From the NCBI RefSeq assembly GCF_029227855.1, contig NZ_CP074356.1: DNA of 64,000 nt; one strand, given 5' to 3'. The first letter of the stretch is position 1. Every line of letters begins with the position of its first letter. The position numbers and the translations under genes were made by a program. The notes beneath the pieces were generated by a model. The model did no database searches. It worked only from the letters and a program-made list of their open reading frames with translations, and was not told the DNA's origin. Source of the DNA: Escherichia coli (GTDB lineage Bacteria > Pseudomonadota > Gammaproteobacteria > Enterobacterales > Enterobacteriaceae). Of this stretch, positions 9,997 through 46,250 are shown in pieces.

Positions 9997-10482
9997 TATC
10001 GCGTCCTCAACAATGAATTTTGTGATGCAGTGCCTGGTGCCTCCAGGTGACGTTAACCAGTTAACAATTAACGTCGGATACAGAGAATCCACCCATAACA
10101 CTGTTTTTGGTTTTAACTGTTCCGCGTGCGCTCAGCCGCATTCACCGCATCACAAAATTCACTTTAAAAACGGCGGCAGAGCAGTCACGGAGTAAAACTG
10201 ATACCGCTAAACGTCACCAGAAAATTGATAACAGAGGGCGTTGCAGCGGGGTTGTCACTTAAGCGTATGGTCAACCTGACAACCCGGTGTCCTCAACGGG
10301 GAAGGAATAACCCCGCCATACTTACCGCCGCGCCATTTCGCGGGTTGCCACAACCGGAAGCGCACGGTCGAATTAAATTTAACGACACCGTACAGTGAGA
10401 CGAACTTCGCCGTGCGCTTTCGTGTTGTGTGCCTGCTTTTAACCACGTCAGGCGAGGTGGTATCCTTAAAATCACCACAGTT

Positions 10483-14022: not shown

Positions 14023-14345
14023 AGAGCATTAGTTCAGATGTGAATTGACATTTTCGTGGCACAAGATTAGCGCTAGCGTGGTCGTTTGGTTTGTGCCAAG
14101 AGCGGATAATGCTGACATTCCTATGCACTAATTAACGCAGAGCAAGCCAGTTAGTTGGTTATGGAAGTAAGTTGTAGCCAGCAACTATCACCATCGGAGA
14201 TATTTAGGGGGATGCACTCTAAGTTGTAGTTACTTTATAATGTCACTTTCAAAGCGGAAGCTTGTACAAAAGATGGATAAGCTTTTGTATAGTATGGGAT
14301 TCAAGAATCACTAAAAGATGACAACAGTACTTACAGGATGTGGCT

Positions 14346-14585
14346 ATGATCCGAATTATGATTAGAATATTTTCTTTGACATTCGTTGCTTGCGCTGGCT
14401 TTGCTGCATATCACTTCAATAGTGTGCCATTGATGTTCACTTCTGGTAGCTTTCTTGTAACATTTTTAGGTACATTTATTGTTAATAAAAAAAGTTCAGG
14501 GCATACAATAATTCAAAAAAGCGGTAGCCATTCAAAAAATAATCATACGGTCGTTTTTGGAAATAATGAAAACAAGCGAGGCTGA
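14346..14585 (+). CDS. small two-TM membrane protein, first gene of AT-rich operon
   Basis: ATG 14346 with SD agga; MIRIMIRIFSLTFVACAGFAAYHF... two hydrophobic helices and a basic tail; stop overlaps start region of next gene. Confidence 0.5.
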   Translation: MIRIMIRIFSLTFVACAGFAAYHFNSVPLMFTSGSFLVTFLGTFIVNKKSSGHTIIQKSGSHSKNNHTVVFGNNENKRG

Positions 14586-14587
14586 TC

Positions 14588-15184
14588 ATGGTTGGTGTTA
14601 CTCAAAGGTCAGGGAATTACTCACGTAATGTGCAGGTGGTTGTCGATTCTAACTCTGTTGATATTATAAAGTCTCCATCGATTTTTATGGATCTTGTTGG
14701 TATTTTAGTTGATTCGAATGTTATTGATCCTCGTACAAACAATGACTACGAGCCATATGATATTGAGAATAAAATAGACTTCAATGATGTTATAAAACAT
14801 AGAGAACGTATTGAAGGGTTCTATCTATATTCTTCGATGATAGATAAAGCGTATGAAACATTAAATGAAAGTATGCCTACTGCTAAGGAAACGGCACTGA
14901 AAAGCATCAATTCACGATATCTTGATTGTCAAGGAGATTTATTGCTTAAACATAGAGAAGCGTATAAGAGCTGCAAGGATGCTCAGGAACGGAATAATTT
15001 AAAGATTCAATTGGTAAGAGAGTTTGCAGATTGGATAATAGACAGTGTAATAGAGCACATCATTAAGAAATGCTTAAATTCTCTTATGGCAATGAATTAC
15101 ACAAGCGAAGAAATCGAATGCCATGCTTCTTTTATCGTTTATCATGCATTCGTAGAGTGTAAGATTCTGGAAAAACCAATATGA
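14588..15184 (+). CDS. hypothetical protein, 198 aa (candidate effector/partner of SMC-like ATPase)
   Basis: ATG 14588 with SD gagg; AT-rich codon usage; stop overlaps next start (ATGA). Confidence 0.6.
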   Translation: MVGVTQRSGNYSRNVQVVVDSNSVDIIKSPSIFMDLVGILVDSNVIDPRTNNDYEPYDIENKIDFNDVIKHRERIEGFYLYSSMIDKAYETLNESMPTAKETALKSINSRYLDCQGDLLLKHREAYKSCKDAQERNNLKIQLVREFADWIIDSVIEHIIKKCLNSLMAMNYTSEEIECHASFIVYHAFVECKILEKPI

Positions 15185-15417
15185 TTATCTCTGATGTAAC
15201 AAAACCAAGCCAAACCTTGTATTACCTGGGAGCTCGGTTATTAGAATGCATGAGTTCAAATGCTTATTCGTATGTTGATATTATAGACTTGTATAATGAA
15301 TTCAAATCTAAAAATAACAACTCTTCATTCACGCAATATATTTACACTTTAAATTGGCTATATTTATTAGGCCTGGTTGATGCTAACGAAAATGGAGATT
15401 TGATATTATGTTTTTGA
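15181..15417 (+). CDS. hypothetical small protein, 78 aa (candidate middle component)
   Basis: Translationally coupled to both neighbours: 4-nt overlap upstream, 10-nt overlap downstream. Confidence 0.5.
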   Translation: MIISDVTKPSQTLYYLGARLLECMSSNAYSYVDIIDLYNEFKSKNNNSSFTQYIYTLNWLYLLGLVDANENGDLILCF

Positions 15418-17132
15418 AACGGCTAATAGTCAGTTCTTTCAGGCTTGGAGTGATTCGTGATATCGAATTTCACATTGGCGTTAATTTGATTATTGACCGA
15501 AACACCTCCAGCAAAGAGCAAACTGGAAATGGTGTGGGAAAAACTACTGTATTAAGAGCTTTAGATTTTTGTTTTGGAGCAGAACAACTGAATTTTTATA
15601 CCGATCCTGAATTCAAGAAAGAAAATTCGGTTATAAAAAATTATTTGATAGAGAACGAGATTGAGTTTTGTTTAATTCTCACAAAAGATTTGAATAATAA
15701 AACTGCACCAGTAATAAAAATTAAGCGTAAAATTACATCTGAGACTAATAAAACGAAGGTTATAGCCTCAATAAATGAAGAGTCCTATACGAAGGCTAAA
15801 GATTTCAACGAGGCTTTAAAAAGAACATTATATCTTGATTCCGCGATAAAACCGACCATACGAGAGATTATGGGACGTGTTATTCGAAATACGCATGACA
15901 AGATGTCGAACGCATTAAAAACGATAAAAATGGGTTCTAATACACAATATGAAACGTTAAATCTGTTTATGTTTGGGTTCGGTAACTCACAGATTCTGGA
16001 TGAAAAACAGTCAGTGACTAAAGCCTATAAACTGGCGAAATCCGATTATGAAGTAATTACTCGCCATCGCTCAAAGAATGCTTTGGAACAAGCTATTGCA
16101 ATTATAAATAGAGATATTATAGCACAAGAAGAGTTAATTTCTAATTTTCAAGTGGCAGACTCTTATAATGATATGCTTGCTGAGTTAAATGAGTTAAAAA
16201 TTAAAATTAGTGAAGTTTCTATCACACTATCATCTTTGGAGTTTAAGCAAAAATTAAACGATAAGGCTATACTAGATCTGGAAAAAAGTCATGAAAATAT
16301 AAATACACTAGATCTACAGAAGTTGTACTTAGAAGCAACTGATCGGTTAGGTAACTTAAACAAAGAGTTTACTGAGCTACTTTCGTTTCATAATAAAATG
16401 CTTGTAAAAAAAGCTGAGTTTATTAGAAAACAAATGCAGCCAGTGCTGCAAGAAATTTCCAAATATAAAGATGAACTAAATAATTTATTGACTCAAGAAT
16501 CAGAGCTTTTAAAGAGTTTGTCTTCGCATGGGACATTGGCAGACCTGCAAATAATGCAAAAAAAATTAAATTCATTATTTGAAGAAAAAGGTGGGCTTGA
16601 AGCTGGACTACTTCAAATCCAAGAGATGGAGAACAACTTTAATATACTGAAAGCAAAGTTTAATGATGTGTCAGATAGATTAAAATCTAAACTTGACGAT
16701 TTTAACAAACGTCTTGCGCTATTCAATTCCTATTTTTCTTTATATACTAAAAAATTATATCAGGATGAATATATTCTTTCCTATAAAGATTCCTCCGGTT
16801 CTTTCGTTTTTACCATTGAACCTTTAGGAACTTTGCTCACATCAGGTAATCAGGGAGAAGGAAAAAAGAAAGCCCAGGTTGCCTCTTTAGATTTTGCCTA
16901 TTTATCTGTCCAGGAGTCTTTAGAAGCCAGAACACCACGTTTTATAGCTCATGATGGAATTGAGGCAATTCATGTAAATCAAATAAATAAGTTATTCGAG
17001 ATAGCTTCGGGGATTAATGGTCAATATATATTGGCTATTCTTAAAGACAAGTTGGAGAATATTGATCAAGACTTCATCAATAATAGTGTTGTGCTTGAGC
17101 TTGGGGAGGACGATAAGTTTTTTAGGCTTTAA
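15408..17132 (+). CDS. SMC-like ABC-type ATPase with long coiled-coil insert, 574 aa
   Basis: N-terminal RecF/SMC-like head with Walker A TGNGVGKTT (about 15522-15548); roughly 230-aa K/E/L-rich coiled-coil region; C-terminal signature-like SGNQGEG and Walker-B-like RFIAHDG followed by IEAIH. Confidence 0.7.
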   Translation: MFLKRLIVSSFRLGVIRDIEFHIGVNLIIDRNTSSKEQTGNGVGKTTVLRALDFCFGAEQLNFYTDPEFKKENSVIKNYLIENEIEFCLILTKDLNNKTAPVIKIKRKITSETNKTKVIASINEESYTKAKDFNEALKRTLYLDSAIKPTIREIMGRVIRNTHDKMSNALKTIKMGSNTQYETLNLFMFGFGNSQILDEKQSVTKAYKLAKSDYEVITRHRSKNALEQAIAIINRDIIAQEELISNFQVADSYNDMLAELNELKIKISEVSITLSSLEFKQKLNDKAILDLEKSHENINTLDLQKLYLEATDRLGNLNKEFTELLSFHNKMLVKKAEFIRKQMQPVLQEISKYKDELNNLLTQESELLKSLSSHGTLADLQIMQKKLNSLFEEKGGLEAGLLQIQEMENNFNILKAKFNDVSDRLKSKLDDFNKRLALFNSYFSLYTKKLYQDEYILSYKDSSGSFVFTIEPLGTLLTSGNQGEGKKKAQVASLDFAYLSVQESLEARTPRFIAHDGIEAIHVNQINKLFEIASGINGQYILAILKDKLENIDQDFINNSVVLELGEDDKFFRL

Positions 17133-17577
17133 GATTTGTAATTTGATAGATATGTAGATATCATTTTTCTCGCTCAAAACTGACAGTCAGATTTGAGCGA
17201 ATTGCTTATGTAAGTATTTCGCAGAATCATGCCATTTATATTTATTAGAACATACGTACTTTAAATGTGGGAGGCTGTCATGTTGGTTCTTAAATGTTCG
17301 CTGACTATTGCGGTGGTGCGGGTAATTTATTGTTCTGTTATTCTTATGGATCGCCTTTCTGACTGATTTCATATTGGCGAGATAACGGGAGTTAAGTAGA
17401 ATGCCTGCGGGTGCTTGAGGCTATCTGCCTCGGGCATGAACACCAACGGCAGATAGAGAAAAGCCCCAGTTAACATTACGCGTCCTGCAAGACGCTTAAC
17501 ATTAATCTGAGGCCAATTTCATGCTAGACACATGTAGGTTAGCCTCTTACGTGCCGAAAGGCAAGGAGAAGCAGGCT

Positions 17578-17733
17578 ATGAAGCAGCAAAAGGCGATGTT
17601 AATCGCCCTGATCGTCATCTGTTTAACCGTCATAGTGACGGCACTGGTAACGAGGAAAGACCTCTGCGAGGTACGAATCCGAACCGGCCAGACGGAGGTC
17701 GCTGTCTTCACAGCTTACGAACCTGAGGAGTAA
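17578..17733 (+). CDS. hokD: Hok-family type I toxin HokD
   Basis: 51-aa product MKQQKAMLIALIVICLTVIVTALVTRKDLCEVRIRTGQTEVAVFTAYEPEE matches remembered HokD/RelF. Confidence 0.85.
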   Translation: MKQQKAMLIALIVICLTVIVTALVTRKDLCEVRIRTGQTEVAVFTAYEPEE

Positions 17734-17949
17734 GAGACCCGGCGAGGGAGAAATCCCTCGCCACCTCTGATGTGACAGGCATCCTCAACGCACCCGCACT
17801 TAACCCGCTTCGGCGTGTTTTTGTTTTTATTTTCAACGCGTTTGAAGTTCTGGACGGTGCCGGAATAGAATCAAAAATACTTAAGTAGCGCGCAGGGATA
17901 AGAGGGATGTTCCCTTAAAGGGGAGAGCTAATTATCCGGAAGGATTCTG

Positions 17950-45568: not shown

Positions 45569-46250
45569 GTGCACAGAAAACCCCCAGCTAGGCTGGGGGT
45601 TCCGGAAAGCTTTCAGCTTTGAGCCAGTTATTAAAACCCCTTTTGATTTGTTAAAACACTTTGCGGTCTGGCAACTGCAAGTGTCAAACAAGAAATCAAA
45701 AGGGGGTCCCAATGGGGAACGAAAAGAGCTTAGCGCACACCCGATGGAACTGTAAATATCACATAGTTTTTGCGCCAAAATACCGAAGACAGGTGTTCTA
45801 CAGAGAGAAGCGTAGAGCAATAGGCAGTATTTTGAGAAAGCTGTGTGAGTGGAAAAGCGTACGGATTCTGGAAGCTGAATGCTGTGCAGATCATATCCAT
45901 ATGCTTGTGGAGATCCCGCCCAAAATGAGCGTATCCGGGTTTATGGGATATCTGAAAGGGAAAAGCAGTCTGATGCTTTACGAGCAGTTTGGTGATTTGA
46001 AATTCAAATACAGGAACAGGGAGTTCTGGTGCAGAGGGTACTACGTCGATACAGTGGGTAAGAACACGGCGAAGATACAGGATTACATAAAGCACCAGCT
46101 TGAAGAGGATAAAATGGGAGAGCAGTTATCGATTCCCTATCCGGGCAGCCCGTTTACGGGCCGTAAGTAACGAAGTTGGATGCAAATGTCAGATCGTGTG
46201 CGCCTGTTAGGGCGCGGCTGGTAAGAGAGCCTTATAGGCGCATTTGAAAA
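45569..46250 (+). mobile_element. IS200-type insertion sequence (IS200/IS605 family)
   Basis: Y1 (HUH) transposase gene flanked by short noncoding ends; perfect palindrome cccccagctaggctggggg at 45581-45599 near the left end; boundaries approximate. Confidence 0.7.
45712..46170 (+). CDS. tnpA: IS200-type transposase TnpA
   Basis: 152-aa product MGNEKSLAHTRWNCKYHIVFAPKYRRQVFY... with HUH-like HMLVEIPP and catalytic Tyr region. Confidence 0.85.
   Translation: MGNEKSLAHTRWNCKYHIVFAPKYRRQVFYREKRRAIGSILRKLCEWKSVRILEAECCADHIHMLVEIPPKMSVSGFMGYLKGKSSLMLYEQFGDLKFKYRNREFWCRGYYVDTVGKNTAKIQDYIKHQLEEDKMGEQLSIPYPGSPFTGRK

What the first reader, a model, noticed from the sequence alone, without database searches (positions are those of the whole stretch)
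17380..17770. hokD type I toxin retained without relBE, immediately downstream of the candidate defence operon
The 51-aa HokD sequence is intact, with the usual in-frame upstream leader ORF and a structured untranslated region where a Sok-like antisense RNA would be expected. The relB-relE pair that precedes hokD in K-12 Qin (from memory) is absent; the AT-rich operon occupies that position instead. Toxin modules next to defence cargo are worth noting.
Basis: partly seen in the sequence, partly recalled or inferred. Interest (0 to 1): 0.35.

Follow-up and report, generated by a model that had tools for sequence, protein, structure and literature searches.

The report
Intact hokD/sok toxin module in prophage
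This is an ordinary, complete copy of the well-known hok/sok RNA-controlled killer-peptide module that many E. coli lambdoid prophages carry; the K-12 relBE-hokD arrangement is the truncated exception, so nothing has been lost here.

Summary
Window 17578-17733 (+) encodes a 51-aa peptide identical to K-12 HokD. An in-frame 70-codon leader ORF starts at 17521. The 5' UTR matches Rfam 'sok' at 115 bits. No relB or relE homologue exists anywhere in the 64 kb.

The interpretation has the polarity reversed. This locus is a complete, self-contained hok/sok-type module. It has its own promoter (17374-17402), tac, ucb, mok SD/ATG and dcb. It has a minus-strand Sok promoter (17564-17536) and a Sok RNA (about 17529 to 17455). 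It also has the hok SD/CDS, a 3' protective hairpin, fbi (17783-17795) and a terminator.

K-12 shares homology only from 17564 onward, so K-12 is the rearranged form that lost the leader and sok.

The module is 92.8% identical to hokW-sokW of phage Sp5/VT2-Sakai, an experimentally validated type I toxin-antitoxin system, and the Sok promoter sequence is identical.

Related leaders occur in 5053 of 5426 complete E. coli genomes. The K-12 junction occurs in 1173 and the ABC-3C-hokD junction in 16.

The only mildly new point concerns the slot just upstream of hokD. It is hypervariable (49 sequence clusters in 86 loci) and often holds defence systems.

Verdict: already known, low interest.

The parts
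17374..17402 (+). hok mRNA promoter-like site, TTGGCG-17 nt-TAGAAT. It places the transcription start near 17409.
   Evidence: Promoter scan. The -10 element GTTAAGTAGAAT is conserved in VT2-Sakai hokW. The Rfam model begins at 17409.
17409..17822 (+). Predicted full-length mok-hok mRNA, about 414 nt.
   Evidence: MFE -165.1 kcal/mol, z -7.55 against shuffles. The RNAalifold consensus structure is kept in 30 homologues.
17409..17420 (+). tac element (GGGUGCUUGAGG) at the 5' end. It pairs with fbi in the full-length mRNA and with ucb in the 3'-truncated mRNA.
   Evidence: Folds. Present in 69 of 77 unique variants, with 2 more differing only at the first base. The tac/fbi pairs are kept in 29-30 of 30 sequences.
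17463..17469 (+). ucb, the anti-SD box (GCCCCAG). It sequesters the mok SD in the full-length fold.
17455..17529 (-). Sok-like antisense RNA, about 75 nt. It has a single-stranded 5' tail, a long terminator hairpin and a CUUUUCUCU tail. It is complementary to the mok SD and start codon.
   Evidence: The annotated sokW misc_RNA of VT2-Sakai maps onto window 17459-17529. Fold -30.5 kcal/mol, z -6.1.
17536..17564 (-). Sok promoter, TTGCCT (17564-17559), 17-nt spacer, TAACCT (17541-17536).
   Evidence: Read from the sequence. The 29-nt sequence is identical in VT2-Sakai sokW. It occurs in 46 of 77 unique variants, and a second allele, TTGACC...TAATCT, occurs in most of the rest. sokW promoter mutations abolish antitoxin activity (PMC8621323).
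17509..17523 (+). mok Shine-Dalgarno (GAGG, 17509-17512) and mok ATG (17521-17523).
17521..17733 (+). mok leader ORF, 70 codons, in frame with hok. Its product would be an N-terminally extended HokD.
   Evidence: mokW is annotated the same way in VT2-Sakai. The exact 70-aa sequence is recorded on at least 1000 contigs.
17542..17546 (+). dcb box (GCCUC). It pairs with the mok SD in the truncated-mRNA fold.
17578..17733 (+). hokD CDS, 51 aa. The SD GGAG lies at 17565-17568.
17716..17718 (+). Tyr47 codon TAC within CUUACGAA. This is the TadA A-to-I recoding site (Tyr to Cys) reported for hokD mRNA.
   Evidence: The sequence context is kept in 76 of 77 variants. Editing of K-12 hokD at 6% is reported in PMC12214031.
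17741..17762 (+). 3' protective stem-loop (GGCGAGGGA-GAAA-UCCCUCGCC). It is the expected 3' end of the processed, translatable mRNA.
   Evidence: Folds. Compensatory changes occur at two of its pairs.
17783..17795 (+). fbi element (CCUCAACGCACCC), complementary to tac.
17803..17822 (+). Intrinsic terminator hairpin, ACCCGC-UUCG-GCGUGU plus a U run. It carries a private G-to-T change at 17816.
   Evidence: Hairpin energy is -4.6 kcal/mol here and -11.8 kcal/mol in the common allele.
17280..17366 (+). Context, not part of the hok module: a conserved small hydrophobic ORF (28 aa, SD GGAGG) in the flank shared with Qin/mEp460-type prophages.
14340..17132 (+). Context: the AT-rich four-gene ABC-3C-type candidate defence operon. 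Its genes are an 81-aa ORF, a CTD10 protein, MC6 and the DUF2326 ATPase.

Best explanation
This is a complete hok/sok-family type I toxin-antitoxin module of the hokD/hokW subtype. It belongs to the backbone of a Qin-like but apparently complete lambdoid prophage.

Mechanism (inferred from homology and predicted folds, not measured here):
1. A stable mok-hok mRNA is made from its own promoter, starting near 17409.
2. In the full-length transcript the 5' tac element pairs with the 3' fbi element, and ucb sequesters the mok Shine-Dalgarno. Neither mok nor hok is then translated.
3. Slow 3' trimming back to the 17741-17762 hairpin removes fbi. tac then pairs with ucb, the mok SD moves into a weaker stem with dcb, and mok translation drives coupled hok translation.
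4. A short, unstable Sok RNA is transcribed from the minus strand (about 17529 to 17455). It pairs across the mok SD and ATG, blocks translation, and marks the duplex for RNase III.
5. When Sok synthesis stops, HokD is made, inserts into the inner membrane and depolarises or lyses the cell. Sok synthesis could stop on prophage induction, on loss of the element, or on transcription shut-off by an infecting phage.

The K-12 relBE-hokD arrangement is a derived rearrangement that removed everything upstream of the hok SD. The ABC-3C operon is interchangeable cargo in the variable slot upstream.
For: - The protein is identical to K-12 HokD and matches HOK_GEF.
- Rfam RF01794 scores 115 bits on the leader.
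- The full-length MFE closes tac with fbi and pairs ucb with the mok SD. The truncated MFE switches to tac/ucb and SD/dcb, which is the published R1 model described in PMC9841398.
- The consensus fold is kept in 30 homologues, including hokC and a P1-like plasmid copy. Nine pairs show compensatory changes.
- The module is 92.8% identical to hokW-sokW of VT2-Sakai. The Sok promoter is identical and the annotated sokW maps onto 17459-17529.
- hokW-sokW has been shown experimentally to be a type I TA that promotes lysis and phage release after induction (PMC8621323).
- The Sok fold has z -6.1.
- K-12 homology starts at 17564 only, and no leader remnant exists in 12 kb of K-12-type Qin.
- The neighbouring genes are prophage backbone: rem, ydfU and Q downstream, replication genes upstream.
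Against: - No expression data exist for this strain.
- The Sok promoter matches the sigma-70 consensus at only 7 of 12 positions, so the simple scan missed it. The scan also reported no terminator.
- tac is invariant across the family, so the tac/fbi pairing has no compensatory support. It shows only G-U-compatible changes.
- Chromosomal hok loci tested by others did not mediate post-segregational killing (bioRxiv 10.1101/2025.08.07.668861).
- This copy has a private mismatch in its terminator stem.
- The physiological role is not resolved. Candidates are lysis helper, prophage maintenance and phage exclusion.
Confidence: 0.85

Rival explanations
1. First reader's reading. hokD is an orphan left over from a relB-relE-hokD operon whose relBE genes were lost or displaced by the AT-rich operon.
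For: relBE precedes hokD in K-12-type genomes, and that junction is present in 1173 of 5426 genomes. No relBE is present in this window.
Against: The 170-nt leader with its own promoter, tac, ucb, mok start and sok gene is present here. It is homologous to hok loci that never had relBE, namely hokW, hokC and plasmid copies. K-12 lacks all of these elements. Leaders of this family are in 5053 of 5426 genomes. The literature calls K-12 hokD the rearranged form.
Confidence: 0.03
2. The module is structurally intact but functionally silent, like the other chromosomal hok loci. It would be a neutral passenger of the prophage.
For: Chromosomal hokA, hokB and hokC loci did not give post-segregational killing or rifampicin activation. 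The terminator stem here carries a destabilising private SNP, lowering hairpin stability from -11.8 to -4.6 kcal/mol. The Sok and hok promoters are only moderate matches to consensus.
Against: Every regulatory element is conserved across dozens of variants while the flanks turn over. The closest relative, hokW-sokW, is active in its native prophage. The HokD peptide is toxic when expressed.
Confidence: 0.12
3. hokD/sok is functionally coupled to the adjacent ABC-3C system. It could act as a backup abortive-infection effector, or be controlled by read-through from the operon.
For: hokD lies directly next to the operon on the same strand. No canonical terminator lies between the DUF2326 stop and hok. 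R1 hok/sok reduces T4 plating (cited in PMC8621323). The slot upstream of hokD often holds defence systems.
Against: The same hok module sits next to at least 49 unrelated upstream sequences, so the partnership is not specific. This junction is in only 16 of 5426 genomes. hok has its own promoter. Genome-wide, hok is not enriched near defence systems: 12% observed against 9.4% expected.
Confidence: 0.05

Closest known systems
hokW-sokW (mokW) of Stx2 phages Sp5/VT2-Sakai and 933W
   Same: The two loci are 92.8% identical in nucleotide sequence over promoter, leader, CDS and fbi. The Sok promoter is identical. Both have an in-frame 70-codon mok and a 51-aa toxin. Both lie in a lambdoid prophage.
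   Different: Four C-terminal residues differ: FTAYEPEE here, FVDYESEK in HokW. There are a few substitutions in the Sok/mok-start region. The terminator and the flanks differ. The small ORF 17280-17366 is absent from VT2-Sakai.
hok/sok (parB) of plasmid R1
   Same: The architecture and the predicted folding pathway are the same: tac/fbi closure, ucb/SD sequestration, refolding after 3' trimming, and Sok antisense to the mok initiation region.
   Different: HokW, which differs from this HokD at four residues, is 44% identical to R1 Hok. R1 mok is out of frame with hok, 58 nt between start codons, whereas here the distance is 57 nt and mok is in frame. R1 is on a plasmid and this copy is in a prophage.
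K-12 Qin relB-relE-hokD (relF)
   Same: The HokD protein is identical. The sequence from 17564 through rem and ydfU is nearly identical (about 94% over 1.4 kb). The chromosomal neighbourhood is the same: ynfE...rspAB, dicB, DicF.
   Different: K-12 lacks the hok promoter, tac, ucb, the mok start and sok. There hokD follows relE by 71 nt. Here relBE is absent and the module is autonomous.
Chromosomal hokC/mokC locus
   Same: The leader is about 70% identical. The tac sequence is the same, and the consensus fold is shared.
   Different: It is a core-genome locus next to dnaJ, not in a prophage, and the toxin sequence differs.

Membership tests
[quoted passage not shown] | Small Hok/Gef-family membrane toxin (Pfam PF01848) | tested here: met
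   HOK_GEF 82.9 bits against a cut-off of 22. PHROG 251 at 114.7 bits. Identical to K-12 HokD.
[quoted passage not shown] | Conserved structured hok mRNA leader | tested here: met
   Rfam RF01794 at 115.3 bits against a gathering score of 59, covering the full model length 1-157.
[quoted passage not shown] | Overlapping mok leader ORF with its own SD upstream of hok | tested here: met
   GAGG at 17509-17512, ATG at 17521, 70 codons. The frame relative to hok varies among close relatives.
[quoted passage not shown] | cis-encoded antisense Sok gene (promoter, short RNA, terminator) overlapping the mok initiation region | tested here: met
   The promoter sequence is identical to that of validated sokW. 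The annotated sokW maps to 17459-17529 (-). The hairpin plus U tail folds with z -6.1. Expression was not measured.
[quoted passage not shown] | Long-range 5'-3' tac/fbi pairing, with alternative tac/ucb and SD/dcb pairings after 3' trimming | tested here: met
   Both conformations appear as MFE structures of the full-length and truncated RNAs. tac/fbi is kept in 29-30 of 30 homologues, but without compensatory changes.
[quoted passage not shown] | Toxin kills the cell, and Sok RNA neutralises it | not testable with these tools
   Shown for the 92.8%-identical hokW-sokW (PMC8621323) and for HokD overexpression. Not shown for this locus.
relBEF operon (K-12 arrangement) | relB and relE immediately upstream of, and co-oriented with, hokD | tested here: not met
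   tblastn of RelB and RelE against all 64 kb gives best E-values of 2.2 and 0.18. Homology to K-12 starts at 17564.
ABC-three-component (ABC-3C / Lamassu-like) systems (the neighbouring operon, context only) | ABC/SMC-like ATPase plus middle component plus effector-domain protein in one operon | tested here: met
   DUF2326 at 52.9 bits, MC6 at 50.8 bits and CTD10 at 42.1 bits. PADLOC PDC-M68B at 140.9 bits and a weak LmuB match. The RefSeq product names agree. Anti-phage activity is untested.

The most novel reading that the evidence does not exclude
The conserved hokD/sok module may mark the fixed right-hand edge of a hypervariable cargo slot in lambdoid prophages, one that preferentially collects anti-phage systems. 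In Qin/mEp460-type phages the 28-29-aa membrane ORF just upstream of hok is part of that edge.

The cargoes seen in this slot are ABC-3C, AIPR, AbiH, SIR2, NACHT, Kiwa KwaB, a type I-C retron, PD-T7-1, PD-Lambda-2, PDC-S06/PrrC-like, AAA_15 and relBE.

The toxin module might help to retain or recombine this cargo. The K-12 relBE-hokD fusion would be one imprecise exchange at this hotspot.
Probability: 0.35. Interest if true: 0.4.

Novelty: already known. Interest (0 to 1): 0.15.

Why it matters
For annotation, the result corrects a K-12-centred view. The 'hokD' of most E. coli is a full hok/sok module. Its Sok RNA, mok and leader are left unannotated in RefSeq, where the leader matches carry no features. 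K-12 is the truncated outlier.

For this window, the toxin gene next to the ABC-3C operon is prophage backbone, not part of the defence cargo. It therefore should not be counted as a component of that system.

The hotspot observation could guide mining for new defence genes by anchoring searches on the hokD leader. However, prophage defence hotspots are already an established concept.

Tried and rejected
- The simple promoter and terminator scan found the hok promoter. It found neither the Sok promoter (7 of 12 consensus matches) nor any terminator, so those features rest on homology to sokW and on folding.
- I searched the whole window for relB and relE and found nothing.
- I searched 12 kb of K-12-type Qin for a displaced remnant of the leader or the small ORF and found none. 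The K-12 form is therefore a replacement or deletion, not an insertion that split the leader.
- I looked for compensatory covariation in tac/fbi. tac is invariant, so only G-U-compatible changes were seen and the test is uninformative.
- The weak Rfam hits in the region are sub-threshold and I treat them as chance: isrK-like at 17742-17823 (19 bits, E 0.24), plus snoRNA and CncR1.
- The Rfam 'sok' model matches the plus strand. It models the hok mRNA leader up to the hok start, so the strand of the hit is not the strand of Sok.
- The small ORF has no match in Pfam-independent libraries: PHROGs and NCBIfam gave nothing.
- I considered hokD as a component of the ABC-3C operon and rejected it, because the same module abuts at least 49 unrelated upstream sequences.

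Full report
WHAT IS THERE

The window is E. coli DNA, 100% identical over the queried region to strain 19A14. The finding lies inside a lambdoid prophage integrated beside rspAB and ynfE. The prophage carries an integrase, dicB, DicF, replication genes, rem, ydfU, a Q antiterminator, lysis genes and a full set of head and tail genes. It occupies the Qin position but, unlike K-12 Qin, looks complete.

At 17578-17733 (+) there is a 51-codon gene. Its product is the same RefSeq protein (WP_000813254.1) as HokD of a K-12-type genome. It matches Pfam HOK_GEF at 82.9 bits and PHROG 251 'MokW-like host killing' at 114.7 bits. A 70-codon ORF starting at 17521 is in frame with it. Rfam RF01794 ('sok') matches 17409-17583 over its whole length at 115.3 bits, against a gathering score of 59. 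That model describes the sense-strand hok mRNA leader up to the hok start codon, so its plus-strand orientation is expected.

No RelB or RelE homologue exists anywhere in the 64 kb.

ANATOMY OF THE MODULE

All the elements that define a hok/sok locus are present.

- Promoter. TTGGCG-17-TAGAAT at 17374-17402 places the transcription start at about 17409, exactly where the Rfam model and the tac sequence GGGUGCUUGAGG begin.
- Full-length RNA. Folding 17409-17825 gives -165.1 kcal/mol, z -7.55. In this fold the 5' tac pairs with CCUCAACGCACCC at 17783-17795 (fbi). The mok Shine-Dalgarno GAGG (17509-17512) is held by GCCCCAG at 17463-17469 (ucb).
- Truncated RNA. Folding the RNA cut back to the strong hairpin at 17741-17762 switches tac onto ucb. 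The mok SD moves into a stem with GCCUC at 17542-17546 (dcb). This is the refolding pathway described for R1 hok mRNA (PMC9841398).
- Sok promoter. On the minus strand, TTGCCT (17564-17559), a 17-nt spacer and TAACCT (17541-17536) form a promoter.
- Sok RNA. That promoter would start an RNA at about 17529. The RNA has a free 5' tail complementary to the mok start and SD. A long hairpin and a CUUUUCUCU tail follow, ending near 17455. Its fold is -30.5 kcal/mol, z -6.1.
- Terminator. A hairpin plus U run at 17803-17822 ends the hok transcript.

An RNAalifold consensus over 30 homologues keeps the tac/fbi closure in 29-30 sequences. These homologues include hokC next to dnaJ and a P1-like plasmid copy. 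Nine pairs elsewhere show compensatory changes. tac itself never varies, so that helix has no covariation support.

RELATION TO KNOWN LOCI

The whole module is 92.8% identical to the hokW-sokW-mokW locus of phage VT2-Sakai (Sp5). There, sokW is annotated as an antisense RNA that maps onto window 17459-17529. The 29-nt Sok promoter is identical in the two loci. mokW is likewise an in-frame 70-codon ORF. HokW differs from HokD at four C-terminal residues.

Takada et al. (PMC8621323) showed the following for hokW-sokW:
- HokW is toxic.
- sokW expressed from its own promoter neutralises it.
- Mutations in the sokW promoter abolish protection.
- RNase III and Hfq contribute.
- Prophage induction removes sokW and lets HokW reach the inner membrane.
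- Loss of the locus halves phage release.

The most likely mechanism here is therefore the classical one, and the role best supported by a close relative is assistance of lysis on induction. Prophage maintenance and exclusion of other phages remain possible.

K-12-type DNA is homologous to this window only from 17564, which is 14 nt upstream of the hok ATG. The relE stop lies 71 nt upstream of hokD, and no displaced leader remnant is found in 12 kb of K-12-type Qin. K-12 therefore lacks the hok promoter, tac, ucb, the mok start and sok. This agrees with the published view that K-12 hokD was inactivated by a genomic rearrangement (PMC12214031, citing Pedersen and Gerdes 1999).

In 5426 complete E. 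coli genomes:
- 5053 hold a match covering at least 80% of this leader (this count includes paralogues).
- 1173 hold the K-12 relE-hokD junction.
- 16 hold the DUF2326-hokD junction of this window.

The locus has not 'retained hokD without relBE'. It has the ordinary complete module, and K-12 is the derived form.

The leader ORF being in frame is also not 'usual' for the family. In R1 the mok and hok start codons are 58 nt apart. I compared 77 unique variants: 76 encode the identical HokD and one is the VT2-Sakai hokW locus. Of these, 52 have an in-frame mok, 18 have an out-of-frame mok and 7 have none. This fits the view that translation of mok, not its product, is what matters.

THE NEIGHBOURHOOD

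The upstream AT-rich block has GC 0.28-0.37. It is a four-gene ABC-3C-type operon encoding an 81-aa ORF, a CTD10 protein, MC6 and a DUF2326 ATPase. The ATPase matches PADLOC candidate PDC-M68B at 140.9 bits.

In other genomes the same interval between the DUF977 replication-module gene and hokD holds different contents:
- an AIPR protein;
- a DUF4145 protein with two unknown genes;
- a PD-T7-1 homologue in phage mEp460_ev081;
- in K-12, flxA-ydfV-relBE.

Across 86 loci (81 with identical HokD and 5 other comparison loci), the distal 1 kb upstream falls into 49 sequence clusters. Representatives carry:
- defence-type domains: PD-Lambda-2, SIR2, PDC-S06/PrrC-like AAA_13, AAA_15, AbiH, a NACHT helical domain, KwaB and a type I-C retron RT-Toprim;
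- non-defence genes: QueH, KilA-N, ORF6N, a ParA-like gene, NA37 and IS elements.

hokD therefore borders a variable, defence-rich slot, and the ABC-3C operon is one rare occupant. A recent survey found no genome-wide enrichment of hok near DefenseFinder systems (12% observed against 9.4% expected), although hok is enriched in prophages. Prophage defence hotspots are an established idea. The hotspot reading is thus a modest, subset-specific addition that I did not test statistically.

OTHER DETAILS

- The Tyr47 codon (TAC, 17716-17718) sits in the CUUACGAA context reported to be A-to-I edited to Cys in hokD mRNA. This context is kept in 76 of 77 variants.
- This window and strain 19A14 carry a private G-to-T change at 17816 in the terminator stem. 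It lowers hairpin stability from -11.8 to -4.6 kcal/mol.
- A conserved 28-29-aa hydrophobic ORF with a good SD lies at 17280-17366, just before the hok promoter. It shows ATG/GTG start exchange, a one-codon indel and synonymous changes. The 29-aa form is a RefSeq 'hypothetical protein' found on 650 contigs. It has no family assignment.

VERDICT

Its closest relative has been annotated for over two decades and tested experimentally. Novelty: already known. Interest: low.

Noticed in passing
window 17280-17366 (+): A conserved small ORF sits 8 nt before the -35 element of the hok promoter. It encodes 28 aa (MLVLKCSLTIAVVRVIYCSVILMDRLSD) and has the SD GGAGG 5 nt upstream. Homologues of 29 aa keep the frame through ATG/GTG start exchange, a one-codon indel and synonymous changes. 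The 29-aa form is a RefSeq 'hypothetical protein' on 650 contigs. It has no Pfam, PHROG or NCBIfam family. It looks like a single transmembrane peptide of unknown function. It is present in Qin/mEp460-type prophages and absent from VT2-Sakai.
   Followed up: partly
window about 14100-17270, and the equivalent interval in L002-L087: The interval immediately upstream of the hokD module is hypervariable, with 49 sequence clusters among 86 loci. It often carries defence or TA genes: ABC-3C, AIPR, AbiH, SIR2, NACHT, KwaB, retron I-C, PD-T7-1, PD-Lambda-2, PDC-S06, AAA_15 and relBE. No statistical enrichment test was done.
   Followed up: partly
window 17816: There is a private G-to-T substitution in the 3' arm of the hok terminator stem (GCGGGU to GCGUGU). 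It was seen only in this window and strain 19A14 among 77 unique variants. The predicted hairpin energy drops from -11.8 to -4.6 kcal/mol. This may allow read-through into rem.
   Followed up: partly
window 17521 versus 17578, and loci L006-L087: The reading frame of mok relative to hok differs among 77 unique variants, 76 of which encode the identical HokD (the other is the VT2-Sakai hokW locus). 52 are in frame, 15 are in frame 2, 3 are in frame 1 and 7 have no mok. Where mok is in frame, its product is a 70-aa N-terminally extended Hok, whose toxicity is unknown.
   Followed up: partly
window 17169-17200 (+): A strong hairpin (CUCGCUCAAAACUGACAGUCAGAUUUGAGCGA) lies 37 nt after the DUF2326 stop and has no U run. 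It is unclear whether it terminates the ABC-3C operon or lets transcription run into the small ORF and hok.
   Followed up: no
window 10171-10222 (-), 45579-45702 (+), 61011-61224 (+): Rfam gathering-level hits to DicF (64.8 bits), STnc490 (144.6 bits) and STnc560 (281.1 bits). DicF confirms the Qin-like identity of the prophage. The other two were not examined.
   Followed up: no
window 17409-17577; RefSeq records: In RefSeq E. coli genomes the hok leader and sok region carry no annotated feature ('none' under every listed match). The Sok RNA and mok are therefore systematically unannotated outside old phage records such as AP000422.
   Followed up: no
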